This document shows, one piece after another, positions 13,203-29,782 of a DNA stretch of 64,000 nt. This stretch comes from an uncultured Holophagales bacterium (GTDB taxonomy: Bacteria; Acidobacteriota; Thermoanaerobaculia; Multivoradales; UBA5704): NCBI GenBank assembly GCA_963842525.1, contig CAWJGT010000014.1:128001-192000 (forward strand). The letters are read 5' to 3'. Each line of letters begins with the position of its first letter. Within the stretch, counting starts at the first letter, position 1. Both the position numbers and the translations under genes were made by a program. The notes below the pieces were generated by a model that worked only from the letters and a program-made list of their open reading frames with translations, did no database searches and had not been told where the DNA came from.

Positions 13203-13357
13203 GGGCCCTCACCCCCGGCCCCTCTCCCATCCGCACTCCCCAACCACCGGGAGAGGGGAGAAAATCGTTCAAGCCTGTTTTCGATCTCCTTCTTTCCCCC
13301 CTCTCCCGGGCGGGAGTGAGTGCGGATGGGAGAGGGGGGCCAGGGGGGTGAGGGCCC
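13203..13357. repeat. REP-like palindromic element, family A (CCCTCACCCC..CCCCTCTCCC / GGGAGAGGGG..GGGGTGAGGG)
   Basis: Long nested inverted repeat; related copies at about 16930, 17954, 18487, 20355, 21007 and 49583. Confidence 0.8.
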
Positions 13358-14905: not shown

Positions 14906-14933
14906 GTCCAACACGCCGCACCTGAACCGTGTC
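14906..14933 (+). promoter_or_regulatory. Putative ECF-sigma promoter GTCCAACA-N13-CCGTGTC (site A, CHAT-SAVED/sigma operon)
   Basis: Motif repeated 6 times with fixed spacing; here followed by RBS AGGAGG (14943) and ATG 14957. Confidence 0.7.
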
Positions 14934-14956: not shown

Positions 14957-16906
14957 ATGGAATATCAGGACTTCACGATCGATGTACGCTCGGCCGAGGG
15001 GGGGCGATTCGAGGCCAGGGTGATCGACGCGCCGCTCGGCGGCAACCCCCGGGTGTTTTTCCCTCCTCCCCTCTCCCAGGAGGATCTGAAGACCCTGCAC
15101 GGGCTCTTCGACGGGTCGGGCAAGGAGGCGCCGGAGAAACCCTCGCCGAAAGCCCTGGCCCGCCAGATGGGGCAGCAGCTTCACACCGCTCTTTTTCGCG
15201 ACGGCGTGGCCGAGCTCTACCAGAAATGCCGGGCCACGCTCCTGAGCGACAAGAACACCGGGCTGCGGCTCCGGCTCAAATTCCAGCTCAAGGATACGGA
15301 GGCCGGCTACCTGGCTGCCCTCCCTTGGGAATGGCTGTGCGACCCCGCCTCCTGCGAGCTCCTGGCGACAGACCCGTGCACGCCCGTGGTGCGAGACATC
15401 GCCGTTCCCCGGCCCCAGGGGACTCTCGAAGTGGCAGGACCCCTGCGCGTCCTCGTCGTCGCCTCAGCCTCCAGCGACATGGGCCTCGACCTGGAGCAGG
15501 AGATCGAGCGGATGGCCGCGGCGCTCAAGCCTCTCGAAGAGTCCGGCAAGGTGAAGCTGGTCCGGCTCGCGACGGCTGACCCGAACGCTCTCCGCGAAGC
15601 CCTCAAGGACGACAAGATCCACGTCCTCCACTTCATGGGCCACGGCGGTTACGATCCCGAGTCCGGCAACGGCGCAGTCATCTTCGCGCAGGAGGGCGCG
15701 GGCAAGGACCAGGTCAGCGGAGAGCCGTTCGCCACCTATCTGAAGGAGCTTCCCAGCTTGCGCCTCGTGGTGCTCAACGCCTGCAAGACCGCGCGGTATG
15801 CCAGCCGGCGAGGCCCCTCGCTCAACCACGGCCTGGCCCCGGTCGTCCTGGAACGCACCCGGGTGCCCGCCGTGGTGGCGAACCAGTACACCATCTCCGA
15901 CACGGCCGCCATTGCCTTCAGCGAGACCTTCTACCGCCGCATCGCCAAGGGGGACCCGGTCGACGAGGCCCTCACCGAGGCACGGTTGCAGCTCTACCGG
16001 ACGAGTGCCGAATGGGCGACGCCGGTCCTCTTCCTCGCCGCACCGCACGGCAGGCTCTTCGCCCTGGGAGCGGCGCGCTCCGACAACGGACTCGTGCACC
16101 GTGAGAAAACCGAGATGATCCGCCTGGGAGTGCGGAGCTTCGATGGATTCGGCGGCGACATGAAGGCACGTAACGAGGCGGTCCTCGAGCTGGCCGGCTA
16201 TTTCGACGGCCGCTATATCAAGCGGAAGGAAGACTGGCAGGAGAAGATCTTCCCGGAGCTGCGAGCATTCCTCCTGAGATGGATCGATCCGCACCGGCCC
16301 CTGCTGCTCGATTTCGCCGCTCATTCCTCGATCGCTTTTGCTGCCGGCTGGGTCCTGGAGCCCAAGAGCGGCCTCGATGTGCGGGTATCACAACGCATCT
16401 CGGGAGAAGGGGTGCTCGATTGGCATCCCAAGGACGGCACGGAGCCGGACGGCTCTCTCTGGCTCGACCGGCCTGACATCGAGCTCGACCCCGAGGCTCC
16501 GGATGTGGCCCTGGCCCTCTCGGCGAGCCAGCCGGACGTGGCCGGCCACGTGCAGGACTTCGTCCAGCGCAAGAGCCTCTCGATCGGGCGGATCGTGGAC
16601 GCAACGGTTGCTCCCGAGCCCGGTCCCCACTCGGTACGCGGCGGAGCGCACGCCTTGGGCCTCGCCCAAGCGCTCCTCCCCCGCCTGCGGCCCAGGAAGC
16701 CTCACGAACGCAAGGGCCGCACCCACCTCTTCTGCGCCGCTCCCAATGCTCTCGTCTTCTACCTGGGACAGCTCGCGTCCTCGCTGGGGAGAGTCGTCCT
16801 CTACGAATTTGCCTTCCGTGCGGAGGATTCGTTCGGGCGGTATCAACAATCCATCGAGCTGCCACCACCCGGCGAAGCCTCTCAGATTCCAGGCGACGAC
16901 TGGTAA
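14957..16906 (+). CDS. CHAT (caspase-like) protease fused to C-terminal SAVED domain
   Basis: CHAT: LAALPWE, VLHFMGHG (His), VVLNAC (Cys), F..TFYRRI, EWATPVLF; SAVED: AHSSIAFAAGW, HLFCAAPNALVFYLGQ..VVLYEF. Confidence 0.88.
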   Translation: MEYQDFTIDVRSAEGGRFEARVIDAPLGGNPRVFFPPPLSQEDLKTLHGLFDGSGKEAPEKPSPKALARQMGQQLHTALFRDGVAELYQKCRATLLSDKNTGLRLRLKFQLKDTEAGYLAALPWEWLCDPASCELLATDPCTPVVRDIAVPRPQGTLEVAGPLRVLVVASASSDMGLDLEQEIERMAAALKPLEESGKVKLVRLATADPNALREALKDDKIHVLHFMGHGGYDPESGNGAVIFAQEGAGKDQVSGEPFATYLKELPSLRLVVLNACKTARYASRRGPSLNHGLAPVVLERTRVPAVVANQYTISDTAAIAFSETFYRRIAKGDPVDEALTEARLQLYRTSAEWATPVLFLAAPHGRLFALGAARSDNGLVHREKTEMIRLGVRSFDGFGGDMKARNEAVLELAGYFDGRYIKRKEDWQEKIFPELRAFLLRWIDPHRPLLLDFAAHSSIAFAAGWVLEPKSGLDVRVSQRISGEGVLDWHPKDGTEPDGSLWLDRPDIELDPEAPDVALALSASQPDVAGHVQDFVQRKSLSIGRIVDATVAPEPGPHSVRGGAHALGLAQALLPRLRPRKPHERKGRTHLFCAAPNALVFYLGQLASSLGRVVLYEFAFRAEDSFGRYQQSIELPPPGEASQIPGDDW

Positions 16907-17031
16907 TGCGCCGAGGCCCGATCAACGTTCCCCCTCTCCCGGCGGGGGATGGGCGGAAGATGGGAGAGGGGGCCAGGGGGTGAGGTCTCTCTCTGGCGGA
17001 AGGGAGGCTTCTGTGGAAAGCTACCTCCGGC

Positions 17032-17643
17032 ATGCCGCCGAACACAGCCTGTACCGAGGACGAGAAGATCCGAGCAGCCATCCGGGCCCTCCAGGCCGGG
17101 GCCGGCCCCGACGCCTTCGCGGCCGTCTTCCGGCGCTTCTACCGGCCGCTCTACAACTTCTTTTCCAATCGCCCCGTCCTGCGCCAGGAGGCCGACGACC
17201 TCACCCAGGTCACGTTGATCCGCGCCCTGCAGAACATCCTGCAATACCGTTGCGAAGCGAATTTCGAGGCATGGCTCCTGCGCATCGCGGAAAACGTCTG
17301 GAACAACACCGTCCGCGATCAGCTCGCGGTCAAGAGAGGTGCGCGCCTGACCACCCAGGAGCCGGAAGCCGACGACGGTCCGCAGCTCCCGGCCGGCAAA
17401 GCCCCCGGCCCCGAAGAGCTGGTCCTGGCGGAAGAGCGGACACGGGTGCTGCGGCAAGCGATCGACACCCTGCCGCCGGGGATGCGCACATGTACCGAGC
17501 TGCGCCTCTACGGAGACCTCGAATACCAGGAGATCGCCGAGGTCACGGGGATCGGCCTCAACAGTGTACGCTCTCAGCTCTTCGAGGCGCGAAAACGCCT
17601 CAGGCCCGTCCTGGAGGAGTATTTCCAGGACGCCACATTCTGA
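17032..17643 (+). CDS. ECF-type RNA polymerase sigma factor
   Basis: Region 2 EADDLTQVTL..FEAWLLRIAEN; region 4 LPPGMR..YQEIAEVTGIGLNSVRSQLFEARKRL. Confidence 0.93.
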   Translation: MPPNTACTEDEKIRAAIRALQAGAGPDAFAAVFRRFYRPLYNFFSNRPVLRQEADDLTQVTLIRALQNILQYRCEANFEAWLLRIAENVWNNTVRDQLAVKRGARLTTQEPEADDGPQLPAGKAPGPEELVLAEERTRVLRQAIDTLPPGMRTCTELRLYGDLEYQEIAEVTGIGLNSVRSQLFEARKRLRPVLEEYFQDATF

Positions 17644-17652
17644 GGGACCCGC

Positions 17653-18486
17653 GTGGGCGGACAGGAAGACTTCGCCAAGGCGCTCAAGGCCATCATGGCT
17701 GCGAAGCGTGAGGAGCTGGGAGAGCCCCCGACCCCGGAGGAGCTGCTCGCCTATCGGGACGGCCGGCTGGACCCGGGCGGCAGGGAACGGATGGAGGCCC
17801 GGATCGCCGTCCACCCCGACGCCGCCCGCGCCCTGGCCGACCTCGCCGCCTTCCCCGCCGTGGAGCCGGCGCCCGGCACGCCGGAGCTGACCGACGAGGA
17901 CCTCGACGTGCGTTGGCAGGCGTTCCGCCAGCGCGTGGCGGCGCTCCCGCCGGCCCCTCACCCCCCTGCCCCCCTCTCCCATCGCACTCCCACCGACCGG
18001 GAGAGGGGGGGAAAAACCGAAGGCCGGCGCCGGCGGCTCTTCGCTCCGCGGCTGGCGGCAGCAGCCGTGCTGGCCCTGGCGGCCGGCTGGGCCGGCGGCT
18101 TCCTGACCGGGCGGGCCTCGCACGACCGCCCCGGCTCGGCCGTCAACATCGACATCGTCGAGCTCACCCCGGAAAAAGAAGGCGGCGACCGCTCGCCGGC
18201 CGCCGCGGTGGAGATGCCGGCCGAAGAGCTGGTGCTGATCCTGGGTGCGCCAGAGGAAGGCGGCTTCGCTAACTACGAAGCCCGGATCGTGGACGCGCAA
18301 GGCTCCCCCGTCTGGTCCCGAACGGGCCTCCACCCCACGCCTCTGGGGACTTTTCACCTCTCCTTCCAGCGGGGCGCTCTGCAGCCGGGGACCTATGGCA
18401 TCCTCCTCTTCGGCCAGGAGGGGAAGCGCAGGAAGCCGGTCGCCACCTATGAGCTGCGTCTCCAGGAGGGACCGGCAAGCCGGTGA
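17653..18486 (+). CDS. Membrane-bound anti-sigma factor (degenerate zf-HC2-like N-terminus, one TM helix, extracytoplasmic beta domain)
   Basis: PTPEELLAYRDGRL..ERMEARI; TM LAAAAVLALAAGWAGGFL; directly follows the sigma gene. Confidence 0.75.
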   Translation: MGGQEDFAKALKAIMAAKREELGEPPTPEELLAYRDGRLDPGGRERMEARIAVHPDAARALADLAAFPAVEPAPGTPELTDEDLDVRWQAFRQRVAALPPAPHPPAPLSHRTPTDRERGGKTEGRRRRLFAPRLAAAAVLALAAGWAGGFLTGRASHDRPGSAVNIDIVELTPEKEGGDRSPAAAVEMPAEELVLILGAPEEGGFANYEARIVDAQGSPVWSRTGLHPTPLGTFHLSFQRGALQPGTYGILLFGQEGKRRKPVATYELRLQEGPASR

Positions 18487-18688
18487 CCTCACCCCCTGGC
18501 CCCCTCTCCCATCTCCCTTCCACCCCCCGCCGGGAGAGGGGGGACGTAGCGGAGGCGTTCGTGGCGAGCCCGATGTCAGCACGTTTCGAGGCGCAGGACC
18601 CCGACCGTGCCTCAGGTGCCTCAACCGCGTCCCCCCTCTCCCGGGGAAAGGGCGGGAGGGAGACGGGAGAGGGGGACAGGGGGTGAGG
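18487..18688. repeat. REP-like palindromic element, family A
   Basis: CCTCACCCCCTGGCCCCCTCTCCC...GGGAGAGGGGGACAGGGGGTGAGG between anti-sigma and TPR-CHAT genes. Confidence 0.8.
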
Positions 18689-21646
18689 ACCTCCGCTGCC
18701 GCCCTCCTCCTCCTCCTCTCCTGCGGCCACCCGCCCGCTGAAACGGTCAACCTCACCCCCGGCGCCGTCCACCCCCGGACCCTCACCGGCCGCGGCCCTT
18801 ATCTCTTCCAATTTCAGCTTCCCGCCGATCGTTTCCTCCGCCTGGACATCGAGCAGCGCGGCGTGGACGTGGTCGTCCTATTGCGCGATCCCGCCGGCCG
18901 TCTCCTCTACGAGGTGGACAGCCCCAACGGCACCGAGCGCGCCGAGCCGGTCCTCGCGGTCACCCCGGTCTCCGGCGAGCACTTGTTGATCGTCGAGCCG
19001 CTCCACCCCGAGGCACGAGGCGATTTCGCCCTGGTCGTCCGCGAGGTCCGGCCGGCCACCCAGGGGGACCGGGTGCGGGCCGCCGCCGCCACCGCGTTCG
19101 CCCGCGCCGAGCGGCGCCGGCTGGAGGGCGACCTGGACCGCGCGGGAATCGACTACCGCAAGGCGCTGCCTCTCCTTGAGGCTTGCGGCGAGCGACGGCA
19201 GGCGGCCGAGGCGCAATGGCACCTCGGCGAAGCCCTCCTCGAAGCCGCCGAGCTGCGGCAGGCGGCGGCGGTCCTGGAACAGGCCGCGGCGCGGTTCCGC
19301 GCCCTGGGCGACCGTCCCGGCGAGGCCCACGCTCTCAACGACCTCGGCGCCGCCTGGAGGCTCCTCGGCGACCCCGAGCCGGCGCTGGCCGCGTACCAAC
19401 GCGCGCTGCACCTTTTTCGCGCCGCGGGGCTCCGCCGGGACGAGGCCTCGACGCTCAACAACATCGGCCTGCTCTTCAAGGGCACCGGCGACCTCCAGGG
19501 CGCACTCAATCACTTCGAGGCGGCTCTCGCCCTCTGGCGTCCTCTCCAGGCGAAGTCGTCCGAAGCGGCGACCCTGGAAAACCTGGGAAGCCTCCACACC
19601 CTGATCGGACAGGACGACGAGGCCCTGGGCTTCCTCCAGGAGGCCCTCCGCCTCCGCGCAGGCGAAAAAGACCTGCGCAAGCGGGCCTCGGTCCTGATCG
19701 AGCTCGGCTGGTCACAATATTGGGCCGGCCATCCGGAGCTGGCCCTGGACCACTACCGCGATGCCATCGCGCTGGCCGAGCGCGCGGGGGACCGCCTGCG
19801 CCAGGCGGGCGCCTGGGACCGCCGCGGATCGGCGCTGCGAGCGCTCCACCGCTACGACGAAGCCGCCGCGTCCTATGCGCGAGCCCTGGCTATGAGCCGC
19901 GCCGCGGGAAGCCGGCTCCACGAGGGGCATATCCTGGCCAACCTCGGAGAGCTCGACCTCGAGACGGGCGCCGTCGAGCGCGGCCGGCAGCGCCTGCAGA
20001 GGGCCGCCGACTTCCTGACCGCGAGCGGCGATCCCAACGCCGTGATTTCCGCCCGCGTCAGCCTCGGCCGAGCCGAACGGCGCCTGGGCCGTTTCGGCCC
20101 GGCGCGCAAGCAGGCCGAAACCGCCATCCGCCTCGTCGAGAGCCTGCGCACCGGCCTCCGCGGCCCCATGAGCCGCGGCAATTTCCTGGCGACCCGCATC
20201 GGCGCCTACGAAGAGCTGGCAACCCTCCTGATGCAGCTCGACCGCACCCGCGAAGCACTGGAGGTCGCGGAGCGCGCCCGCGCCCGCAATCTCCTGGAGG
20301 ACATCCGGGAGGAAAACAGAGAGTGTGTCGAAAGCGCGTCGCGAGCCCGGGAAACCCTCACCCCCGACCCCTCTCCCAACCGCACTCCCGACCTCCGGGA
20401 GAGGGGAGCCCCCACCCAAAAGCCTTTTCCGCAGTTTCGCTTCCCCCCTCTCCCGGTGGCCAGGGAGTGCGGATGGGAGAGGGGGGCCAGGGGGGTGAGG
20501 GCCCTGACCGCCAACGAGATCCAGGCCCTGGCCGACGACGGCACCCTCCTCGTCGTCTATCTCCTGGCCGAGCCCGCGAGCTTCGCCTGGACCGTCCACC
20601 GCAAGACCGTGGCCTCCCATACCCTCGCCGGGAGAGAGCGCATCGAAAAGCTCGCCCGCCGGGTGATCCACGCCATGCCCCACAGCCACGAAGTCGCTGG
20701 CCAGGGCACCGCCACGCGAGCAGCGCAGGAGCTTGCGGACGCCATCCTCGCGCCCCTCGGCGAGCGCCTGGCCGGCCGGCAACGCCTCGTGATCCTCGCC
20801 GACGGAGCCCTGCACCTCGTCCCCTTCGCCGCCCTGCCTGGGAGCACCGGCGAGCCGCTCCTGGCCGATCACGAGATCGTAATGGTCCCCTCCGCCACGG
20901 TGCTCCAGGCACAGCGCCGCCGCTTCGCCGGACGGCCCCCCGCACCGGAGCTGGCCGCCATCCTGGCCGATCCAATCTTCTCGCCGACGGACGAACGCCT
21001 CCAGTTCCCCCTCTCCCGGGGGAAGGGGGGGCGATGGGAGAGGGGGCCAGGGGGTGAGGGGCCAGCCCTCGAACGCCTGCCCTACACCGCGACCGAGGCC
21101 GAAGACATCGTCCGCCTCATCCCTCGCGGACAGGCACTCCTGGCCCTCGGACCCGCCGCAAGCCGGGACCTCGTCCTGGCCGGCGGCCTGCGGCGCTATC
21201 GCATCCTCCATTTCGCGACCCACGGCCTGCTGCACCCGGTCCTGCCCGAACGCTCGGGCATCGTCCTCTCGCTGTTCGATGAGAAAGGAAAACGCCTTGA
21301 CGGATTCCTCTCTGCGCCGGACGTCGCGGCGTTGGACCTCCCCGCCGAGACGGTGGTCCTGAGCGCCTGCCAGACCGGCCTCGGCCGCGAGATGCGGGGC
21401 GAAGGCCTGGTCGGCCTCACTCATGCCTTTTTCCGCGCCGGAGCCCGCCGCGTCGTCGTGAGCACCTGGAAGGTCCGCGACCGCGCCACGGCCGAGCTCA
21501 TGGCCCGCTTCTACCGCCACCTCCTCGGCGACGGCCTGCCGCCCGCCGCCGCGCTGCGGGCTGCCCAGCTTTCCATCCGCAACGAACCGCAGTGGCACGC
21601 CCCCTACTTCTGGGCCGGCTTCTCCCTCCAGGGCGATTGGCAATAA
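18683..21646 (+). CDS. TPR-CHAT protease, probable lipoprotein
   Basis: GTG start, MRTSAAALLLLLSC lipobox-like; beta domain (EQRGVDV..DSPNG), multiple TPRs; CHAT motifs DGALHLVPF, ILHFATHG, VVLSACQTG, WKVRD, PYFWAGF. Confidence 0.88.
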   Translation: MRTSAAALLLLLSCGHPPAETVNLTPGAVHPRTLTGRGPYLFQFQLPADRFLRLDIEQRGVDVVVLLRDPAGRLLYEVDSPNGTERAEPVLAVTPVSGEHLLIVEPLHPEARGDFALVVREVRPATQGDRVRAAAATAFARAERRRLEGDLDRAGIDYRKALPLLEACGERRQAAEAQWHLGEALLEAAELRQAAAVLEQAAARFRALGDRPGEAHALNDLGAAWRLLGDPEPALAAYQRALHLFRAAGLRRDEASTLNNIGLLFKGTGDLQGALNHFEAALALWRPLQAKSSEAATLENLGSLHTLIGQDDEALGFLQEALRLRAGEKDLRKRASVLIELGWSQYWAGHPELALDHYRDAIALAERAGDRLRQAGAWDRRGSALRALHRYDEAAASYARALAMSRAAGSRLHEGHILANLGELDLETGAVERGRQRLQRAADFLTASGDPNAVISARVSLGRAERRLGRFGPARKQAETAIRLVESLRTGLRGPMSRGNFLATRIGAYEELATLLMQLDRTREALEVAERARARNLLEDIREENRECVESASRARETLTPDPSPNRTPDLRERGAPTQKPFPQFRFPPLPVARECGWERGARGVRALTANEIQALADDGTLLVVYLLAEPASFAWTVHRKTVASHTLAGRERIEKLARRVIHAMPHSHEVAGQGTATRAAQELADAILAPLGERLAGRQRLVILADGALHLVPFAALPGSTGEPLLADHEIVMVPSATVLQAQRRRFAGRPPAPELAAILADPIFSPTDERLQFPLSRGKGGRWERGPGGEGPALERLPYTATEAEDIVRLIPRGQALLALGPAASRDLVLAGGLRRYRILHFATHGLLHPVLPERSGIVLSLFDEKGKRLDGFLSAPDVAALDLPAETVVLSACQTGLGREMRGEGLVGLTHAFFRAGARRVVVSTWKVRDRATAELMARFYRHLLGDGLPPAAALRAAQLSIRNEPQWHAPYFWAGFSLQGDWQ

Positions 21647-21651
21647 AGACC

Positions 21652-21679
21652 GTCCAACAAATCTCCGGCAACCCGTGTC
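21652..21679 (+). promoter_or_regulatory. Putative ECF promoter, site B
   Basis: GTCCAACA-aatctccggcaac-CCGTGTC upstream of the 72-aa ORF. Confidence 0.7.
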
Positions 21680-21742
21680 GGAGCAGGTAGAAGCAGAAAC
21701 CACCGGCCCCTGCCGGGCCGGAGGGATCGAAAGGAGCCCCCC

Positions 21743-21961
21743 ATGCCGACCCATCCCATCCTCTCGACAGGCCCCTTCCTCGCCGACCCTGAGCCCATTG
21801 ATGAACAGACCGGTGGGGGACCCAAAGTGGGCCGCGACGAGCCGATCCAACCGGAAGAGGACGTGGTGCGTATCGGTGAGGAAAACCCCGGCGGGCCACA
21901 GACAGGTGGAACCGTCAAGACCGGTCGCACAAAGCCGATCCAACCTGAAACGGAGGACTGA
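21743..21961 (+). CDS. 72-aa acidic peptide with duplicated QTGGxxKxGRxxPIQPE motif
   Basis: RBS GAAAGGAG; own promoter motif; internal repeat conserved at the protein level. Confidence 0.7.
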   Translation: MPTHPILSTGPFLADPEPIDEQTGGGPKVGRDEPIQPEEDVVRIGEENPGGPQTGGTVKTGRTKPIQPETED

Positions 21962-21968
21962 AAGCAGC

Positions 21969-22055
21969 CCCCCTGGGAGCGCGGGCGTCTCGCCCGCCCG
22001 GAGCCGAGCCGTCATATCGAGCCGCCAGCGGGCGGGACGCCCGCGCTCCCAGGGG
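21969..22055. repeat. REP-like inverted repeat, family B (GGGAGCGCGGGCGTC.CGCCCGC)
   Basis: Inverted pair; second pair at 33639-33751. Confidence 0.75.
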
Positions 22056-22081
22056 CCGCTGCCAACCACTTTGACCGGGCC

Positions 22082-22109
22082 GTCCAACAAATTCCGGACA
22101 GTCCGTGTC
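22082..22109 (+). promoter_or_regulatory. Putative ECF promoter, site C (cas operon)
   Basis: GTCCAACA-aattccggacagt-CCGTGTC ending 64 bp upstream of the cas6 ATG. Confidence 0.7.
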
Positions 22110-22173: not shown

Positions 22174-23082
22174 ATGCAAGGACTCCAGCCCACCTCTCCC
22201 CTTCCCACCATCCCCCATCTCCGCCTGGAGGTGACCCTCCGGGCGGAGGAGCCGGCGACGCTCCCTGCCTTCCACGGCTCGATGCTGCGCGGCGCCTTTG
22301 GGCACGCTCTGCGCCGGTCGGTCTGTTCCATGGGGCCGGCGCAGGCGTGCGAGACCTGCACGTTGCGCCGGCCCTGCATCTACACGCGGATTTTCGAATC
22401 GTTCGTCGAAGGCGAGCCGCCGCCGTTCCTGCGCGGGATCGATCAGGCGGTCCGTCCCTATCTCTTCGAGCCCAAAGGCGGAGCGGGCCGGCTGGAGCCC
22501 GGCGAGCCCTTGCGCTTCGACCTGCTGCTCTTCGGCCAGGCCGTGGACCTCCAGGCGTACGCCGTTCTGGCGATCCGCCGCATGGCGCAGTCGGGGCTCG
22601 GCGCCGGCCGTGCCCGCTTCCGGCTCGATCACATCGAAATGCGGGAATCGCCGGCCCTCCAGGACGCTCCGCTCCCGGACGGGCCGGTCACCCTCCGTTT
22701 CGTCACACCCCTGCGCATCAAGATCCGCGACCAGCTCGCCGATCGATTCCGATTCCGGGACCTCGCCTTTCACATGCTGCGGCGCACGCTGGAGCTCGCC
22801 CACACCCACGTCCCCGGCGCGCCGGTCGACTGGAGCTTCCAGCCCCTGCTCCGGAAGGCCGACGCCGTCCAGGCCACCGCCGCCAGCCTCCGCTGGCACG
22901 ACTGGGAGCGCTGGAGCCAGCGCCAGCAGACCCGCATGAAGCTCGGCGGCGTCGTGGGCACCCTGACGCTCGACGGCGACCTCTCACCTTTTACATCCCT
23001 GCTGCGCACCGCCGAGGTGATCCATGTCGGCAAGGGGACCACGTTCGGGCTGGGGAAGATGAGGATCGAGGCAGCGGCATGA
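22174..23082 (+). CDS. cas6: CRISPR pre-crRNA endoribonuclease Cas6
   Basis: GSMLRGAFGHALR, Cys cluster CETC..CIY, FVTPLRI, WERWSQRQ..MKLGG, C-terminal G-loop HVGKGTTFGLG. Confidence 0.93.
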   Translation: MQGLQPTSPLPTIPHLRLEVTLRAEEPATLPAFHGSMLRGAFGHALRRSVCSMGPAQACETCTLRRPCIYTRIFESFVEGEPPPFLRGIDQAVRPYLFEPKGGAGRLEPGEPLRFDLLLFGQAVDLQAYAVLAIRRMAQSGLGAGRARFRLDHIEMRESPALQDAPLPDGPVTLRFVTPLRIKIRDQLADRFRFRDLAFHMLRRTLELAHTHVPGAPVDWSFQPLLRKADAVQATAASLRWHDWERWSQRQQTRMKLGGVVGTLTLDGDLSPFTSLLRTAEVIHVGKGTTFGLGKMRIEAAA

Positions 23083-24848
23083 ATCACGAGAAATCCGAAA
23101 CCAGAGAATCCAGCAGCCGCCATGTGGCGGATGTGGCCAAGCGGGCACTATCGCCTCACTTCAGCGATGGTGAGGTCCCGCCCGCGCTCCTCGAAGCGGT
23201 CGCCGCCGGCCAGGGCAATCGCGAAGAGGTGCGCCGCATCACCGAGAAGGCCTGCGGCTCCGGCAAGCCTTTCGATCTGGTGCTCTTCGACACAGACCGG
23301 ATCAGCGACTATGTCTTCGAGTCGAGCCGGCCACCGGTCATTGCCGGAGCCTCCAAAATCCTTGACGATCTCAACCAGTCGATCGGCGACGAGTATCGGG
23401 ACAGCACGATCTATTCCGGCGGCGGCGAGGGCATCCTGCTGGTCCTGAGAGGAGACGGCGAACGGATCTGCTCCGAGATCGAGGAGCGCTTCCGCACGAA
23501 GACCGATGGCGCCCTGACGGTCACCACGGGCTGGCTGGAGATCTCGCCTCACGATTTCATCGCGACGACACCGCGAGGAGAGGCGGACAACGGAGCCCGC
23601 CTTGTCTCGGGCACGCAGGCGGTCCTCTCGCGCTTGCGCGATCTGGTCCGAGAGAAGAAGGATGGCCGGTCCGACTTCCGCTCTCCCGTGCACGCCGAGA
23701 GCGAGCGCTGTGCCTCCTGCCGGGACCGGAAAGCCGACTCCATTCCGATCAAGTTCTATCGGGATGAGGTCGGGCGTATCTGCGAGCCTTGTTGGGTCCG
23801 GTGGGGTGTGGGCAAGGAGCTCATCGAGGGGTGGTCTTTCGACGAGCTGGCGGAAAAGTACCAGAAGGCCCTCGGATCGGAAGGCGCCAAGACGCGCTAT
23901 CTCGGCTTCGTCTACGCCGACGGCAACTCGATGGGCGCGCTCTTCGGTCGCCTCGAATCTCTGTCCGACCTGCGCTTCCTGAGCCATTCGGTCCGCGACG
24001 CTTTCGCCATGACGAGGGGGCAGGTAAAGGAAGAGGTGCAGCGGCTGGTCCCGGTGCCAGGAGGCTTTCCTCTCCTCAGCTATCTCGGCGGCGGTGACGA
24101 GGCGATCTGGATCCTTCCCGCCGCGCTGGCCGTTCACATCACGGAAAAGCTGCCGCTGTGGGTCGAGGCTGCGTCACAGCGCATCCCCGATTTTCTGACG
24201 GTTCTGAAGCATCATGGAGTTTCCCGCGTGACGCTGGGCACCGGCCTGGTGATCTGCGATCTGGGCTACCCGGTGCGCTATCAGTACCGGCTCGCGAAGG
24301 ACCTCCAGAAACGCGCCAAGGCGATGTTCTACGCCCGGCAGACAGCCGATGTAACCTCTTCGCTCGACTTCGAGGTCCTGACGGACTCTTCGCCACTGAG
24401 CGATGAGCTCGGCGCGGTCCGCGAGCTCGCGTACAAGACCGCCGACTCCGACTTCCTGCGTACCTGCCGCCCCTACACGGAGCGCGGTTTCCAGGAGCTC
24501 CTCAACCGGATGCGCCAGGCCCGCGCACCCCGCAACGGGAACGGCAAGGTGGTGCGTAAGCCCATCGCCAATTCCCAGCTTTACGGATTGCAGAGCGGCG
24601 CCGCAGAAGGCAAGGCGGTGTTCCTCAACTATCTCCGCTATCAGCTCGCCCGCAAGCCCGCCGGCCCCACCATTCAAGACTGGATGGACGCCTTCAATCA
24701 CAAGTGGACCGATCCTCAGGACGTCGAAAGATTTTTCGTGGACGCCGCGGAGGGCGGCAAGACCGGCACGTGGATCCCGGACGGCCTGCAGCTCGCGCCG
24801 TTTCTCGATCAGCTCCGCAAGCTGGAAGACGCGAAGGAGCGCCGCTGA
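23079..24848 (+). CDS. cas10: Cas10 large subunit (no HD domain, GGDE palm)
   Basis: FDTDRISDYVF, YSGGGEG, Zn motif CASC..CEPC, YADGNSMG, YLGGGDE; ATGA overlap with cas6. Confidence 0.9.
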   Translation: MNHEKSETRESSSRHVADVAKRALSPHFSDGEVPPALLEAVAAGQGNREEVRRITEKACGSGKPFDLVLFDTDRISDYVFESSRPPVIAGASKILDDLNQSIGDEYRDSTIYSGGGEGILLVLRGDGERICSEIEERFRTKTDGALTVTTGWLEISPHDFIATTPRGEADNGARLVSGTQAVLSRLRDLVREKKDGRSDFRSPVHAESERCASCRDRKADSIPIKFYRDEVGRICEPCWVRWGVGKELIEGWSFDELAEKYQKALGSEGAKTRYLGFVYADGNSMGALFGRLESLSDLRFLSHSVRDAFAMTRGQVKEEVQRLVPVPGGFPLLSYLGGGDEAIWILPAALAVHITEKLPLWVEAASQRIPDFLTVLKHHGVSRVTLGTGLVICDLGYPVRYQYRLAKDLQKRAKAMFYARQTADVTSSLDFEVLTDSSPLSDELGAVRELAYKTADSDFLRTCRPYTERGFQELLNRMRQARAPRNGNGKVVRKPIANSQLYGLQSGAAEGKAVFLNYLRYQLARKPAGPTIQDWMDAFNHKWTDPQDVERFFVDAAEGGKTGTWIPDGLQLAPFLDQLRKLEDAKERR

Positions 24849-26700
24849 TGCCAAAGCTCGAAATCACTCTTCACGGGCATCTGCTCGTCGCCGGAGGCCA
24901 AGCCGCGGCTCTCGGCGTCGATCTCGCCACGGCCCAGCGCTTCGACGAGAAGGGCGAGCTGGTGCCCTACATCCCCGCCACCGCCCTGCGCGGTGCGGTC
25001 CGCCTTCAGCTCGAATCACTCCTGGCCGGCACGAATCATCCGGACATCGGTCCCTATCCGCGTGATGTGGAAGGCGAAACCCGCGAGGGCTTCGATACTC
25101 CGATCGCCCGTCTCTTCGGCTACTCCGGCAAGAAGGGTGCAAGAAACGGCGCCAGGGAGGGAAGCCTCCGCTTTTCGGATGCCCTGCCGAAAGATCCCAA
25201 GAGTGCCGCCCAGGCGCTGGGCGTACGGCCTGGGCTCGAGATCAATGATTTCACCTCGACTGCCGAGGAGCAGAAGCTCTTCTTCCGCGAGCTGGTTGAA
25301 ACCTCGGCCGAGCCGCTCGTTTTCACTGCCGATCTCGATCTCAACAAGCAGGTCTCTAAAGAAGATCGAGACAGCTTGCAAGCCGCGGTCGAGAGCACGG
25401 ACTCGATCGGCGCCGGCAAGGCCAAGGGCGGCGGCTTCGTCTCGATCCGCTGGATCGACGAGACCGGGAAACAGCCAGAGGACAAGCAGGAAGAGAATGC
25501 GCCTCCTTCAGGTTTCCTAGGGGACCCGTCAGCCGCCACGCGGGTACGGTTGCTTCTCACGCTGACCGAGCCGGCCCATTTCGGAGACGGCGGCCCGCAG
25601 GGCAACCATCACGGTAGCCGCACTTTCATCCCGGGTGCAACCGTCCGCGGCGCCATCGCCTGGGCACTCCTGCGCAACGGGGTCGCCCCCCAAGACCCAG
25701 CCTTCCAGAGCCTTTTTATGAAGGCCGGGAGCTTCGGCGACGCCCTCCCCACTCTCGATCCGGACGAGGAGCCCGTGATCTATCCCGCTACAGCGCGGAA
25801 ACGCCGAGGGGGCGAGGAAGAGATCAAGGACATCCTTGTCACGGAGGCTCGCCCGCCAACAGATCAACGAGCAGCCCGACGGCGTCTTTCTCCGATCGGA
25901 CGACGGCGATGCCCGCTTCGATCCTGTCCCGGCTCGCCCCGACCCGGGCCTTATCCGGCGCCTGCGCACCCGGGTCTCCATCGACCGCCACACCGGCACC
26001 GCAGCCGATGGCCGCCTCTTCACCATCGAACAGGTCGAGCCCTGGCTAGCCCCGAAGAATCACCAGAAACCGCGCAGGACCACGTTCGTCTGCCGCGTCG
26101 AAAACCTGGATCAGTCCGCCGCGGAGCTGCTTGCCTTGGCCGCGGACCTGCCGATCCTGATCGGCGCGGGTCGCAACCATGGGATGGGGCGCGCCCTCCT
26201 GCAGGTACACTTCGAGGCTGAAGAAACCATCGAGAATGCGGAGCTGCGAGTCCTGAAGCTCACAGGCCTCGTTCGCCAGGAAGCCGTACGCCTCGCCCGC
26301 CATGCCGGCCTCCCCCATCCGGAGGACGCGGCAAACCACGGCCAAGCCGTTCTCGCATTGCTTGCGCTATCGGACTTCGTACCGTCCCACCCAGAGGCGG
26401 CGCATCCGCTGGCCGAGCTCGCGGAGCCTGGCTTACAGGATATCCATCCACTCCGTCGCTTCCTTAACCCGGGACAGGTCGGCGGCTACAACCAGCTCGT
26501 CGAGGGGGGTGCCCTCAAGGACCTCGCCCCGTCCGTCGGAGCGGGAAGCGTCTTCGTCTATCGCATTCAACGGCAGGGCCTGACACCGCTGCTTGACCGG
26601 CTCCTCCCGCGGCTGCGCCGGGGAGTGGGCCGTGACTGCGCCAGCGGCTGCGGCCGGTTCGGTCTGTTCGAGCCATTTTTTCCAAGGAGAAGAAGGATGA
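24848..26700 (+). CDS. csx10: Csx10-like Cas7-Cas5 RAMP fusion (frameshift near 25846)
   Basis: PYIPATALRGAVR, IGAGKAKGGG, FIPGATVRGAIA, RVSIDRHTGTAADGRLF, IGAGRNHGMG, GAGSVFVY, GCGRF; an apparent extra G splits the frames. Confidence 0.8.
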
Positions 26701-27089
26701 GCGCTGAGCCTGAAGTTGGAAGCAAATCCTGGTTGGTCGGCAGAGCCGAGAATATCCTCGGGAACCAAGTGCCGAGAAATCAGGCATCTCAGTTGCGGAA
26801 CCTTGTTCAGATCACACAGAAGGAATCCGAAGTGCCCGTCCTTGCGAACTTCATCCGCTATCAGGCTGGCCGGAAAGCTACGGGCGGATTCTGGCGCCCG
26901 ATCCACAAGCAGGTCATCGAAGTCCTCCAGAAGATCGAGGAGAAGTTCCCTGCCGAGGACGAGCGCAAGGCCGCCATTCAGAATTTCTTCGGTTACATGG
27001 TACGGCACTATGTCTATCTCGAGGGTGCCGGCGAGAGAGGCTCAACATCATCCAAGCCGAAAGGAGGAGCGCCTCATGGACGCAACTGA
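26697..27089 (+). CDS. Probable Cas11-like small subunit
   Basis: Helical 130 aa with SQLRNLV, NFIRYQAGR, FFGYMVR; RBS AAGGAG upstream; currently in frame with the 3' half of csx10. Confidence 0.65.
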   Translation: MSAEPEVGSKSWLVGRAENILGNQVPRNQASQLRNLVQITQKESEVPVLANFIRYQAGRKATGGFWRPIHKQVIEVLQKIEEKFPAEDERKAAIQNFFGYMVRHYVYLEGAGERGSTSSKPKGGAPHGRN

Positions 27090-27909
27090 GTTTCGCCTCC
27101 GGCATCATGCCGTGGTCGATGAGATCGTGCTCTTCGACTATCGACTCACATGCCGCACTGGCCTCCACATCGGCGCCGGCAAGCGTGCAGATCTTGTTGA
27201 GAGTGACTTGCCGGTGATGCGGGATGCGGCCGGCCGACCCTTCGTACCGGGCTCTTCCCTGAGAGGCGTCCTTCGCGCCGGTGCCGAAGCCCTCTCCAAA
27301 TCGTTGGCGCTCGACTCCGCAAAGCCGGCCGCGCAGGCCGAGCAGCTTCCAGGTGTGCCACGTGAGCTCTCCGAGCTCTGGCACGAGCTCGATCTCGTTC
27401 AGCGCATCTTCGGCACCGTCATCCCGGGAACGAAGAAGGCGCTCGCCTCCAGGCTTCAAATCTCGGACGCCGTATGCCGCTCTCCAATTATCACCGAGGT
27501 ACGCGATGGCGTCGGCATCTCCCGGGAAACACGAACTGCCAGCCACGATACCGGCGCAAAGTTCGACATAGAGGTGGTGCCGGCCGGGACTACCTTCGAG
27601 GGACGCATCCGCTTCAAGAACCCGGCAGCTTTCGAGCTGGGGCTCCTCGCCCAAGGCCTTTGGATGCTTGACGAGGGGTTGCTCCTTCTGGGCGGCAAGT
27701 CAGCGCGTGGGCTCGGCTGGGTGGAAGTGACGACCAGCACACCGAGCAAGCGCTCTGCTCAGGAGATCCTCCGTGCAGGCAAAAGCACAGCGCCTGACAC
27801 CCCTCGCAGCTTCGGTCCCGTTCCCGAGAAGCTCGCGCAGTATCTGACCTGCCTGCAACAACTCGCGGATACCACCGCGCAGGGGCCTCACCGGCCTCAG
27901 GATAACTGA
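27076..27909 (+). CDS. Cas7-group RAMP (Csm3/Csx7-like)
   Basis: TGLHIGAG, SDLPV (position of the Csm3 catalytic Asp), PFVPGSSLRGVLR, RDGVGISR, LGGKSARGLG. Confidence 0.88.
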   Translation: MDATEFRLRHHAVVDEIVLFDYRLTCRTGLHIGAGKRADLVESDLPVMRDAAGRPFVPGSSLRGVLRAGAEALSKSLALDSAKPAAQAEQLPGVPRELSELWHELDLVQRIFGTVIPGTKKALASRLQISDAVCRSPIITEVRDGVGISRETRTASHDTGAKFDIEVVPAGTTFEGRIRFKNPAAFELGLLAQGLWMLDEGLLLLGGKSARGLGWVEVTTSTPSKRSAQEILRAGKSTAPDTPRSFGPVPEKLAQYLTCLQQLADTTAQGPHRPQDN

Positions 27910-27911
27910 TC

Positions 27912-28823: not shown

Positions 28824-28827
28824 CAGT

Positions 28828-29766: not shown

Positions 29767-29782
29767 CGAACGGAAGGCGAAA

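What the first reader, a model, noticed from the sequence alone, without database searches (positions are those of the whole stretch)
21743..21961. 72-aa peptide with a duplicated QTGG-x-x-K-x-GR-x-x-PIQPE motif under its own ECF-like promoter
Seen: strong RBS, promoter site B, a downstream hairpin, and two units QTGGGPKVGRDEPIQPE and QTGGTVKTGRTKPIQPE in an acidic, probably disordered chain with no signal peptide. It sits between TPR-CHAT and cas6. Inference: a CHAT substrate, inhibitor or TPR ligand. One speculative role is an alarm peptide released on lysis that activates TPR-CHAT in neighbouring cells and pre-arms their CRISPR.
Basis: partly seen in the sequence, partly recalled or inferred. 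Interest (0 to 1): 0.72.

Follow-up and report, generated by a model that had tools for sequence, protein, structure and literature searches.

The report
Small disordered protein in CRISPR sigma regulon
A real 72-residue, acidic, unstructured protein gene sits behind a secreted caspase-like sensor gene and shares a rare promoter with the neighbouring CRISPR genes and arrays; similar small genes recur at this position in related modules, and their role is unknown.

Summary
ORF 21743-21961(+) encodes 72 aa with two 17-aa units (12/17 identical; 0 of 20,000 shuffles reach this). It has an AAAGGAG ribosome site and the promoter-like motif GTCCAAC-N15-CGTGTC.

That motif occurs 9 times in the 9.95-Mb genome, 6 of them in this window. 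The six precede the CHAT-SAVED/ECF sigma/anti-sigma/TPR-CHAT operon, this ORF, the cas6-cmr-TIR-SAVED operon and three CRISPR leaders.

The gene looks genuine:
- Five metagenomic homologues exist, one with a single unit.
- Five of the 12 residues shared by the two units use different synonymous codons.

The "hairpin" is a dispersed palindromic repeat.

The locus is a split version of the Myxococcus DdvS/DdvA ECF-controlled type III-B island. Of 16 sigma/anti-sigma/TPR-CHAT modules examined, 14 carry a small hydrophilic ORF directly after TPR-CHAT. In 6 of those 14, caspase-fold protease genes follow.

TPR-CHAT has an export signal and the peptide has none. My best guess (about 0.3) is a sigma-induced cytoplasmic decoy or inhibitor of the caspase-like effector, like PCi. 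The alarm-ligand idea is not excluded. Function is untested.

The parts
14906..14933 (+). Promoter-like motif P1 (GTCCAAC-N15-CGTGTC) ahead of the CHAT-SAVED/sigma/anti-sigma/TPR-CHAT operon
14957..16906 (+). CHAT-SAVED protease: CHAT domain N-terminal, SAVED sensor C-terminal; no signal peptide, so cytoplasmic
   Evidence: Pfam CHAT 1.5e-27 and SAVED 1e-23; PDB matches Cap4 SAVED 7yia and CHAT 8tl0; PADLOC SAVED families
17032..17643 (+). ECF-type sigma factor
   Evidence: Pfam Sigma70_r2 and r4_2
17653..18486 (+). Single-pass membrane anti-sigma factor (277 aa). This copy lacks the HxxxCxxC motif that its paralogues have
   Evidence: hydropathy and paralogue comparison
18683..21646 (+). TPR-CHAT protease with a lipoprotein-type signal (MRTSAAALLLLLSC); His/Cys dyad conserved
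   Evidence: Pfam; start and signal read by eye; invariant H843/H847/C896 in 25 sequences
21652..21679 (+). Promoter-like motif P2, directly after the TPR-CHAT stop codon
   Evidence: No differences at 21652-21680 in a related soil-metagenome contig that has 21 differences elsewhere
21730..21736 (+). Shine-Dalgarno AAAGGAG, 6 nt before the ATG
21743..21961 (+). 72-aa acidic disordered protein (P0001)
21806..21856 (+). Unit 1, QTGGGPKVGRDEPIQPE (residues 22-38); the less conserved unit among homologues
21899..21949 (+). Unit 2, QTGGTVKTGRTKPIQPE (residues 53-69); Q53 T54 G55 G56 K59 G61 R62 I66-T70 invariant in 6 of 6 homologues
21964..22066 (.). Long perfect hairpin, one copy of a genome-wide palindromic repeat. 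It may end or stabilise the peptide transcript
22082..22109 (+). Promoter-like motif P3 ahead of cas6
22174..31728 (+). cas6, cas10/cmr2, five RAMP genes, one unknown gene, TIR-SAVED (type III-B operon)
   Evidence: Pfam; PADLOC TIR-SAVED
31872..31899 (+). Promoter-like motif P4 in the leader of CRISPR array 1
32287..33534 (+). CRISPR array 1 (17 repeats of 37 nt)
35247..35274 (+). Promoter-like motif P5 in the leader of array 2, 436 nt before the first repeat
35683..37880 (+). CRISPR array 2 (29 repeats)
38567..38594 (+). Promoter-like motif P6 in the leader of array 3 (the leader is a 97% duplicate of the array 2 leader)
39003..40070 (+). CRISPR array 3 (14 repeats)

Best explanation
Well supported. 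The ORF is a genuine gene for a small, acidic, intrinsically disordered cytoplasmic protein. It is its own transcription unit within a locus-specific ECF sigma regulon. That regulon also comprises the CHAT-SAVED/sigma/anti-sigma/TPR-CHAT operon, the cas6-cmr-TIR-SAVED operon and the CRISPR leaders. The locus is a split form of the Myxococcus DdvS/DdvA system.

Inferred signalling path:
1. The exported TPR-CHAT senses a signal outside the cytoplasm.
2. The membrane anti-sigma is cleaved and the sigma is released.
3. The sigma switches on all six promoters in the window, so the peptide is made together with the Cmr complex, crRNAs and the cOA-activated CHAT-SAVED protease.

Inferred function, not shown. 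In the cytoplasm the peptide acts as a decoy substrate or competitive inhibitor of the caspase-like effector, here CHAT-SAVED. The conserved K-x-G-R sites in its repeat units would be the sites engaged. It would buffer or time proteolysis, as PCi does for PCaspase in Haliangium.
For: Real gene:
- 5 homologues at 72-83% identity to the window protein in alignment A1 (67-87% by BLASTP in the search listing), with an invariant N-terminus and an invariant unit 2.
- One homologue is a 41-aa form with a single unit and the frame kept.
- 5 of the 12 residues shared by the two units use different synonymous codons. Third-position identity is 9/17, against 12/17 and 13/17 at positions 1 and 2.
- A related soil contig has 0 differences in the promoter, 9 substitutions plus 3 indels in the 45-nt 5' UTR, and only 2 differences (one synonymous, one P5S as in the homologues) in the first 49 coding nt.

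Regulon:
- GTCCAAC-N15-CGTGTC occurs at 9 sites genome-wide, 6 of them in the window. The other 3 lie in CRISPR-leader-like sequence.
- Its geometry (AA-N16-CGT) equals that of the mapped DdvS promoters, GTAA-N16-CGT (PMC6061681, section 16 read).

Link to caspase-like proteases:
- 14 of 16 sigma/anti-sigma/TPR-CHAT modules have a small ORF with a ribosome site right after TPR-CHAT. Automated count: 13/16 forward, 3/16 reverse strand, 0.12 in shuffles. One further case overlaps the stop codon.
- In 6 of those 14 the next genes are CHAT, C14 or C25-like proteases. In the window, CHAT-SAVED heads the regulon instead.
[quoted passage not shown] 1 legend passage).
- Precedent: PCi is cleaved by PCaspase and inhibits it (bioRxiv 10.1101/2023.06.23.546230, sections 4 and 5 read).

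Compartment: the peptide and CHAT-SAVED both lack signal peptides.
Against: - No binding or cleavage data of any kind exist, and I could not run a CHAT-SAVED/peptide co-fold.
- The protease association is not universal. In 7 of the 14 modules with a small ORF the next gene is something else or has no Pfam match: a Ser/Thr kinase, a TonB-dependent receptor, cmr genes, a thioredoxin-reductase-like gene (by eye), and three without a match.
- The only invariant neighbours are sigma, anti-sigma and TPR-CHAT. That fits a role in signalling itself at least as well.
- The small ORFs of different modules share no significant sequence similarity (BLASTP E 0.1, hhalign E 0.04). K-x-G-[RFY] is seen in only 4 of the closer modules: the window, C3a, C23 and L036.
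- PCi was predicted to have a CI-2-like fold. This peptide is predicted to be unstructured.
- That the motif is recognised by this sigma factor is an inference from geometry and position.
Confidence: 0.3

Rival explanations
1. Cognate signal for the exported TPR-CHAT sensor (alarm or autoinducer peptide). The cytoplasmic peptide, or fragments of it, reaches the outside when cells lyse or through an unknown exporter. It binds the TPR groove or CHAT site of TPR-CHAT on neighbouring cells. This triggers anti-sigma cleavage and pre-arms their CRISPR-Cas. Its own sigma-dependent promoter gives positive feedback.
For: - The tightest and only invariant association is with the TPR-CHAT gene directly upstream (14 of 16 modules).
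- A receptor gene followed by a small, autoinduced ORF is the layout of peptide signalling cassettes (recalled knowledge of Rap-Phr, PlcR-PapR and AimR-AimP).
- The peptides diverge very fast between paralogous modules, of which there are 4 in this genome. This is as expected for insulated ligand-receptor pairs.
- The TPR region resembles the peptide-binding LGN/Pins TPRs.
- The signal sensed by the homologous DdvA TPR-CHAT is stated to be unknown (PMC11506125, discussion passages).
- The difference in compartment is what a release-on-lysis signal would need.
Against: - None of the small ORFs has a signal peptide or an obvious export motif.
- A 7.6-kDa peptide should not cross an outer membrane unless it is processed or the lipoprotein is surface-exposed.
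- If the peptide is made only after sigma activation, something else must give the first signal.
- No sequence motif is shared between the peptides and the anti-sigma periplasmic linkers.
Confidence: 0.15
2. Cytoplasmic feedback regulator of the sigma/anti-sigma pair. Once induced, it binds the sigma factor or the anti-sigma cytoplasmic domain. It either damps the response (a second anti-sigma) or helps free the sigma from the cleaved anti-sigma fragment.
For: - Sigma, anti-sigma and TPR-CHAT are the invariant neighbours.
- The peptide is in the same compartment as the sigma factor.
- Module-specific divergence fits the need to insulate at least 4 paralogous sigma/anti-sigma pairs.
- Small acidic disordered sigma-binding proteins are known (recalled general knowledge).
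Against: - No similarity to any anti-sigma or anti-anti-sigma family (Pfam; profile search).
- A conventional anti-sigma gene is already present.
- In the paralogous modules I found no copy of the peptide promoter upstream of the sigma gene, so the feedback wiring is not general.
Confidence: 0.15
3. A translated leader or short ORF whose product has no function of its own. Either translation merely affects the stability or termination of the sigma-dependent transcript, or the ORF is a fast-evolving, nearly neutral by-product of the promoter region.
For: - Conservation is positional without sequence conservation between modules.
- The composition is low-complexity, rich in Pro, Gly, Asp and Glu.
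- A hairpin or terminator often follows.
- GC3 is 0.67, lower than the 0.76-0.88 of neighbouring genes read in frame.
Against: - Within the family the amino-acid sequence is kept: an invariant 16-residue N-terminus and an invariant unit 2 across sequences that differ by about 30% elsewhere.
- The duplicated motif is kept through synonymous changes.
- cas6 has its own promoter after the hairpin, so the ORF is not a leader for cas6.
- Lengths of 41-121 aa with strong ribosome sites are unusual for attenuator peptides.
Confidence: 0.12
4. An output effector unrelated to the proteases. Examples: an acidic DNA or protein mimic acting as an anti-repressor (as CarS does in the Myxococcus CarQ/CarR/CarS ECF system; recalled), or a factor acting on phage or on the Cmr complex.
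For: - Acidic, disordered and sigma-induced.
- One of only three protein-coding units with this promoter in the genome.
- In L068 the positional equivalent abuts cmr1 directly.
Against: - Nothing specific supports it, and there is no homology to any characterised protein.
- In M. xanthus, deleting MXAN_7287-7284 left crRNA maturation intact (PMC6061681, passage from section 20).
Confidence: 0.2

Closest known systems
Myxococcus xanthus DdvS/DdvA ECF sigma/anti-sigma regulon controlling a CBASS and type III-B CRISPR-Cas island (PMC6061681; PMC11506125)
   Same: - An ECF sigma and a membrane anti-sigma.
- A TPR-CHAT module outside the cytoplasm.
- Several sigma-type promoters with AA-N16-CGT geometry, in front of a CHAT-SAVED effector, the sigma operon and the cmr operon.
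- A gene for 'a protein of unknown function' directly after the TPR-CHAT-bearing gene, followed there by a C25-type peptidase.
   Different: - Here the anti-sigma (277 aa) and TPR-CHAT (987 aa, lipoprotein-type signal) are separate genes.
- The TPR-CHAT His/Cys dyad is conserved, whereas DdvA's active site is described as incomplete.
- The CRISPR leaders carry the promoter themselves. In M. xanthus the array is read through from the cas operon.
- No CD-NTase was seen among the proteins I scanned.
- The organism appears to be a Thermoanaerobaculia acidobacterium (names on the closest homologues).
- I did not see the size or sequence of the M. xanthus unknown protein.
PCi, the PCaspase inhibitor in the Haliangium ochraceum SAVED-CHAT/PCaspase type III-B cluster (bioRxiv 10.1101/2023.06.23.546230)
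   Same: - A small orphan protein encoded among a SAVED/CHAT protease, an ECF-like sigma factor and caspase-like proteases next to cmr genes.
- PCi is reported to have no homologues elsewhere.
- It is cleaved by the caspase and inhibits it, which is the role I propose here.
   Different: - PCi was predicted to have a CI-2-like fold. This peptide is predicted to be unstructured.
- There is no sequence relation between them.
- PCi lies between the sigma and kinase genes, not after a TPR-CHAT gene.
- The partner protease here would be CHAT-SAVED, not a C14 PCaspase.
Receptor-propeptide cassettes of peptide signalling (Rap-Phr, PlcR-PapR, AimR-AimP; recalled knowledge)
   Same: A TPR-containing sensor gene is followed directly by a small, separately promoted and probably autoinduced ORF that diverges quickly between paralogues.
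   Different: - The peptide has no signal sequence.
- The sensor is an exported protease rather than a cytoplasmic regulator.
- The organism has two membranes.
Securin, the disordered pseudosubstrate inhibitor of the separase-type TPR-CHAT protease (mentioned in PMC11506125)
   Same: A disordered acidic polypeptide paired with a separase/craspase-type TPR-CHAT protease. It has basic residues (K-x-G-R) that could mimic a cleavage site.
   Different: The predicted compartments differ (exported protease, cytoplasmic peptide). There is no sequence similarity.

Membership tests
DdvS/DdvA-type ECF-controlled type III-B island | ECF sigma factor encoded in the island | tested here: met
   Sigma70_r2 and r4_2 at 17032-17643
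DdvS/DdvA-type ECF-controlled type III-B island | Anti-sigma is a single polypeptide with a cytoplasmic zinc-binding sigma-binding domain, one membrane helix and a periplasmic TPR-CHAT | tested here: not met
   The anti-sigma (277 aa, one hydrophobic helix, about 125-aa outer domain) and TPR-CHAT (own signal peptide) are separate genes. This copy lacks the HxxxCxxC motif that its paralogues have
DdvS/DdvA-type ECF-controlled type III-B island | Several sigma-dependent promoters (AA-N16-CGT) before the effector, sigma and cmr operons | tested here: inconclusive
   Six motif sites at the expected places and 9 in the genome. Dependence on this sigma factor was not tested
DdvS/DdvA-type ECF-controlled type III-B island | Type III-B cmr genes plus a CHAT-SAVED effector under that control | tested here: met
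   Pfam Cas6, Cas10 palm2, RAMPs, CHAT plus SAVED
PCi-like caspase inhibitor | Small protein encoded within a SAVED/CHAT, sigma and caspase cluster | tested here: met
   Position. Caspase-fold protease genes follow the small ORF in 6 of 14 modules
PCi-like caspase inhibitor | CI-2-like inhibitor fold | tested here: not met
   The AlphaFold2 model has no secondary structure, pTM 0.11
PCi-like caspase inhibitor | Cleaved by the cognate caspase-like protease and inhibits it | not testable with these tools
   Needs biochemistry
Secreted signalling propeptide (RRNPP-type cassette) | Small ORF directly downstream of a TPR sensor gene, with its own promoter | tested here: met
Secreted signalling propeptide (RRNPP-type cassette) | N-terminal export signal on the propeptide | tested here: not met
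   No hydrophobic N-terminus in P0001, or in 13 of the 14 small ORFs; the exception is the 121-aa C3b ORF, which has an internal hydrophobic stretch. Judged by eye
Securin-like pseudosubstrate of TPR-CHAT | Same compartment as the protease, and binding along the TPR/CHAT | tested here: not met
   TPR-CHAT has a lipoprotein-type signal and the peptide has none. This covers the compartment half only. Binding was not resolved: the one co-fold job gave no verdict (see Tried and rejected)
Known protein families in general | Any hit in Pfam, PADLOC, the profile search of 1.84 billion representatives, the ESM Atlas, or phage genomes | tested here: not met
   Pfam 0; PADLOC 0; only its own cluster; best Atlas score 0.79, below the 0.9 lead threshold; one phage match at E 0.9

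The most novel reading that the evidence does not exclude
The small ORFs that follow exported TPR-CHAT sensor genes encode the sensors' own cognate signals. Each would be a cytoplasmic 'self' peptide that becomes visible to the outward-facing TPR-CHAT only when kin cells burst. Lysis by phage, or by the island's own abortive effectors, would then switch on the ECF sigma factor in neighbours. This would pre-load them with Cmr complexes, crRNAs from all arrays, and more peptide. It would be a peptide alarm relay for CRISPR immunity. It would also name the long-sought input of DdvA-type anti-sigma/TPR-CHAT sensors.
Probability: 0.13. Interest if true: 0.9.

Novelty: new variant of a known kind. 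Interest (0 to 1): 0.62.

Why it matters
How type III CRISPR-Cas expression is switched on, and what the TPR-CHAT sensors of DdvA-type ECF systems detect, are open questions. The authors of PMC11506125 say the signal is unknown.

This locus shows a split form of that system in an acidobacterium. A single rare promoter type ties together the protease and sigma operon, the cmr operon, every CRISPR leader, and one small orphan protein.

The same kind of small ORF recurs after TPR-CHAT in most related modules, often ahead of caspase-like proteases. The Myxococcus operon has an unstudied 'protein of unknown function' at that spot.

This gives a concrete, cheap candidate to test, either as the missing regulator or inhibitor of bacterial caspase-like effectors or as the sensor's ligand.

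Tried and rejected
Searches and tests that led nowhere:
- Co-folding. Peptide (alignment A1) against TPR-CHAT residues 141-987 (alignment A3) scored 0.00 in both runs. The tool's verdict was 'no answer', so I count it neither for nor against binding.
- Expression. No RNA holder was listed. The three DNA holders are soil metagenomes with small shares (0.14, 0.09, 0.05).
- Laid contigs. Laying those three gave only short fragments. Two joints (21791>21857 and 21882>22080) have sides of 25 and 21 letters in a single low-depth contig each, and I did not use them.
- Homologues in 60 relatives' genomes. Only chance-level hits, best E 0.003, all inside large unrelated frames.
- Homologues in GTDB genome contigs: 56 pattern matches, 0 confirmed.
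- Homologues in JGI metagenome contigs: 306 pattern matches, 0 confirmed.
- Profile search: only the peptide's own cluster.
- ESM Atlas: best score 0.79, not informative.
- Phage genomes: one match at E 0.9.
- Context of the five ENA homologues P0002-P0006. I tried to link them through contig lengths by searching with the TPR-CHAT C-terminus. No matching contig length appeared.
- Leader ORF. The 65-aa ORF in the duplicated CRISPR leaders (35296-35493) contains QTGGHPGKNR. I treat this as chance, because it is basic, lies in AT-rich leader sequence, and is duplicated only through the recent leader duplication.
- Double-glycine leader idea for QTGG. I rejected it as a general explanation because the first QTGG is not conserved and other modules' peptides lack GG. 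I did not search for a peptidase-type ABC exporter.
- Substrate mimicry. I looked for a motif shared between each peptide and its module's anti-sigma linker and saw none. The window's RGGKTEGR stretch lies in an inserted palindromic repeat.
- Autoregulation in paralogous modules. I found no copy of the peptide-type motif upstream of the sigma genes in 6 modules.
- First automated small-ORF count. Its loose criteria gave 11/16 forward against 8/16 on the reverse strand, which is not discriminating. I replaced it with stricter criteria.

Rows dropped before the 16-module count:
- L030, L034, L035, L037: anti-sigma hits with no TPR-CHAT in the fetched stretch.
- L048: contig end, upstream not visible, although it has a 62-aa ORF.
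- L065: from an unpublished genome, not analysed.
- 20 loci without a sigma or anti-sigma hit upstream. Seven of these have the sigma gene directly after TPR-CHAT and no small ORF.
- L070-L073: distant or truncated.

Other limits:
- The tally (56 of 301 genomes) includes the unpublished genome G545. No other claim rests on it.
- Supplements were closed. These may bear on the comparison, and I did not see them: table S7 and the supplementary figures of PMC11506125, the supplementary figures of PMC6061681, and the Extended Data of the Steens preprint.
Full report
**Observation**

ORF 21743-21961(+) encodes MPTHPILSTGPFLADPEPIDEQTGGGPKVGRDEPIQPEEDVVRIGEENPGGPQTGGTVKTGRTKPIQPETED.
- Residues 22-38 and 53-69 share 12 of 17 positions. 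None of 20,000 composition-preserving shuffles reached 12; the maximum was 10.
- AAAGGAG lies 6 nt before the ATG.
- The protein is acidic and hydrophilic (pI 4.4, GRAVY -0.99).
- AlphaFold2 with the 6-sequence alignment gives no secondary structure (pTM 0.11, mean pLDDT 62).
- Pfam places it between a TPR-CHAT gene and cas6.
- The hairpin after the stop codon is very stable (-86.6 kcal/mol, z -7.2). It is one copy of a dispersed palindromic repeat with 86 BLAST matches in the genome, so it is not a structure made for this gene.

**Is it a gene?**

In this 70% GC genome open frames are cheap, so I looked for selection.
- Among 5.8 billion protein clusters there are five other members (P0002-P0006), all from ENA metagenome contigs of 506-1578 bp. 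The search lists them at 67-87% BLASTP identity.
- In alignment A1 they are 72-83% identical to the window protein. The first 16 residues are nearly invariant, as is unit 2 (Q53 T54 G55 G56 K59 G61 R62 I66-T70). Unit 1 varies.
- P0006 is a 41-aa form with one unit and the frame kept.
- Within the window gene, 5 of the 12 residues shared by the two units use different synonymous codons. Third-position identity is 9/17, against 12/17 and 13/17 at positions 1 and 2. So the amino-acid motif is conserved, not the DNA.
- A related soil-metagenome contig (run X3, record 15) shows three contrasting stretches. There are no differences at 21652-21680. There are 9 substitutions and 3 indels at 21698-21742. 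There are only 2 differences at 21743-21791: a synonymous His codon, and P5S as in the homologues. It is a single contig at depth 2.8, so this is weak but consistent.
- A profile search of 1.84 billion representatives found only the family's own cluster.
- No relative turned up in 60 related genomes, GTDB contigs, JGI metagenomes, Pfam, PADLOC, the ESM Atlas or phage genomes.

**The promoter and its regulon**

- The motif before the ORF is GTCCAAC-N15-CGTGTC.
- In the 9.95-Mb assembly it occurs 9 times, all reading towards what follows. It occurs 0 times with N14 or N16, and a reversed control pattern occurs once.
- Six sites are in the window:
  - 14906, just before CHAT-SAVED and downstream of a terminator-like hairpin;
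  - 21652, before the peptide;
  - 22082, before cas6;
  - 31872, 35247 and 38567, each roughly 390-440 nt before the first repeat of a CRISPR array.
- The other three sites (contigs C3, C12, C22) lie in sequence that looks like the same CRISPR leader.
- The geometry (AA-N16-CGT) matches the mapped DdvS promoters of M. xanthus, GTAA-N16-CGT (PMC6061681, section 16 read).
- An ECF sigma gene (17032-17643) sits in the operon behind the first site.
- That this sigma factor reads the motif is an inference from these facts. It was not tested.

**The locus**

- After P1 come four genes:
  - CHAT-SAVED, with no signal peptide. Its SAVED domain resembles Cap4 and its CHAT domain resembles PDB 8tl0.
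  - The ECF sigma factor.
  - A 277-aa protein with one hydrophobic helix. Its paralogues have an HxxxCxxC anti-sigma motif.
  - TPR-CHAT.
- Read from GTG 18683, TPR-CHAT begins MRTSAAALLLLLSC, a lipoprotein-type signal.
- All 8 TPR-CHATs in the sigma modules I inspected, and most of the 24 homologues aligned later, start with signal-like segments. This was judged by eye; no predictor was run.
- The His/Cys dyad is invariant in 25 sequences.
- After the peptide come cas6, cas10/cmr2, RAMP genes and TIR-SAVED, and then three arrays with 60 identical or near-identical 37-nt repeats.
- This is the layout of the M. xanthus DdvS/DdvA island: an ECF sigma, a transmembrane anti-sigma with a periplasmic TPR-CHAT, four DdvS promoters, a CHAT-SAVED effector and type III-B cmr (PMC6061681 abstract and sections; PMC11506125 abstract and passages). 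Here the anti-sigma and TPR-CHAT are separate genes.
- Names on the closest TPR-CHAT homologues point to Thermoanaerobaculia, Acidobacteriota.

**A recurrent small ORF**

- The sigma/anti-sigma/TPR-CHAT triplet occurs at least four times in this genome. Each copy has a small ORF with a strong ribosome site right after TPR-CHAT:
  - 72 aa in the window;
  - 44 aa (C3a), with KTGR and KPGR;
  - 73 aa (C23), with KPG[FY]GEPGDDPIPD repeated;
  - 121 aa (C3b), overlapping the TPR-CHAT stop codon.
- Three of the four are preceded by an AAC...GTC-type motif (CGTGTC in the window and C23, GGGTC in C3a). The C3b ORF overlaps the TPR-CHAT stop codon, which leaves no room for a promoter between the two genes.
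- I then examined modules in other genomes, found through the anti-sigma or through TPR-CHAT, and two JGI metagenome orthologues at 68-70% identity.
- In all, 16 modules have sigma and/or anti-sigma upstream, or are close orthologues.
- With fixed criteria (ATG or GTG within 350 nt, 5-mer ribosome site, 40-130 aa), 13 of 16 have such an ORF on the forward strand. The reverse strand gives 3 of 16, and mononucleotide shuffles give a mean of 0.12. With the overlapping C3b case the count is 14 of 16.
- L033 and L052 have none.
- Seven loci with the gene order TPR-CHAT then sigma have none.
- The ORFs are 41-121 aa, hydrophilic and mostly acidic, and rich in Pro and Gly.
- They are not demonstrably homologous to each other: P0001 against the L069 ORF gives BLASTP E 0.1, and A1 against the L068 ORF gives hhalign E 0.04.
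- K-x-G-[RFY] recurs in the window, C3a, C23 and L036 only.
- L068 and L069 carry the same GTCCAAC or ATCCAAC motif. In L068 the 41-aa ORF abuts cmr1-cmr2-cmr3.

**What follows the small ORF**

- In 6 of the 14 modules the next genes are caspase-fold proteases:
  - C23: C25-like, then C14;
  - C3a: C14, then CHAT-NACHT;
  - L036: CHAT, then CHAT-FGE;
  - L032: CHAT;
  - L031: CHAT;
  - L054/L081: C25-like, then CHAT.
- In the window, CHAT-SAVED heads the regulon instead.
- The remaining modules have a Ser/Thr kinase (L050/L080), a TonB-dependent receptor (L044/L079), cmr genes (L068), a thioredoxin-reductase-like gene (C3b, by eye), or no Pfam match (L039/L077, L040/L078, L069).
[quoted passage not shown] 1 legend passage). 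That is the same order.
- Deleting MXAN_7287-7284 there left crRNA maturation intact (PMC6061681, passage from section 20).
- In Haliangium a small orphan protein, PCi, lies in a SAVED-CHAT/sigma/kinase/PCaspase cluster. It is cleaved by PCaspase and inhibits it (bioRxiv 10.1101/2023.06.23.546230, sections 4 and 5 read).

**Mechanism**

- Shown from sequence: a real small gene; a rare motif shared with the CRISPR and protease operons; a recurrent position after an exported TPR-CHAT.
- Inferred: the motif is the sigma factor's promoter, so the peptide is induced together with Cmr, the crRNAs and CHAT-SAVED.
- The function is a guess among several.
  - I rank first (0.3) a cytoplasmic decoy substrate or inhibitor of the caspase-like effector. 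The reasons are the shared compartment, the frequent protease neighbours, the conserved K-x-G-R sites and the PCi precedent.
  - The alarm or autoinducer ligand of TPR-CHAT (0.15) is favoured by the invariant adjacency and the fast module-specific divergence. It is hindered by the lack of an export signal and by the outer membrane.
  - A feedback regulator of the sigma/anti-sigma pair (0.15), a translated leader without a functional product (0.12) and another kind of effector (0.2) remain open.

**Novelty**

- ECF control of type III-B CRISPR by a TPR-CHAT-linked anti-sigma is known.
- I found three things not described:
  - the split form;
  - promoters inside the CRISPR leaders;
  - a recurrent small ORF partner, of which this peptide is one family.
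- The literature searches were: 'SAVED-CHAT' with 'PCaspase'; 'ECF' with 'CHAT domain' and 'anti-sigma'; 'TPR-CHAT', 'sigma factor' and 'small protein'. The supplements were not visible.
- I file it as a new variant of a known kind, with a function still to be found.

Noticed in passing
window 13219-13337, 16931-16971, 17971-18008, 18501-18541, 18633-18674, 20368-20484, 21008-21045, 49597-49636: A second palindromic repeat family, CCCCTCTCCC-N-GGGAGAGGGG (38-42 bp), has 744 copies in the genome. Several copies lie in frame inside coding sequences. One is in the anti-sigma linker, where it encodes PLSHRTPTDRERG. Three are inside TPR-CHAT. This resembles the in-frame palindromic element insertions known from Rickettsia (recalled).
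   Followed up: partly
genome contigs C22:91059, C12:86236, C3:978886 (outside the window): Three more GTCCAAC-N15-CGTGTC sites lie in sequence resembling the window's CRISPR leaders (CTCTTTGACAAC..., GGGGTAACGGCGG). CRISPR arrays elsewhere in the genome may therefore answer to the same sigma factor.
   Followed up: partly
window 35104-35700 and 38424-39020: The leaders of arrays 2 and 3 are a 97% identical duplicate of about 600 bp. Each holds a 65-aa basic ORF with a strong ribosome site (35296-35493) that happens to contain QTGGHPGKNR. I treat this as chance.
   Followed up: partly
window 37910-38421: A 63-bp tandem repeat of 8 copies (96% matches) lies between CRISPR array 2 and the leader of array 3.
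   Followed up: no
window 17653-18486: The island's anti-sigma lacks the HxxxCxxC zinc motif that its paralogues and relatives carry. It reads HPDAARA where they have HLALCPGC or similar.
   Followed up: partly
L033 1-330 (genome G396): Another sigma/anti-sigma/TPR-CHAT/CHAT-SAVED-like module, in a different family of the phylum, lies next to a CRISPR array with a different repeat (GTGCAGACGTGACTCGATTGAAGAGGATTGAAAC). This module has no clear small ORF.
   Followed up: no
genome C3:811970-815700; L046, L058: TPR-CHAT genes without a sigma/anti-sigma pair are followed by a different kind of small protein: 98-138 aa, ending in a GSWTA-x-EG-like motif.
   Followed up: no
L068 1905-2220: The closest metagenomic orthologue has two tandem copies of the promoter motif. 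The first is followed by only a 9-codon frame that contains CCGATCCAA, the PIQ codons of the window peptide. This may be a decayed peptide gene.
   Followed up: no
window 30469-31728: TIR-SAVED is the last gene of the cmr operon. The island therefore carries two SAVED effectors, a CHAT protease and a TIR, under the same promoter type.
   Followed up: partly
L041, L043, L049, L056, L059, L060, L062: An alternative gene order, TPR-CHAT then ECF sigma then anti-sigma, is common in other families of the class. It lacks the small ORF.
   Followed up: partly
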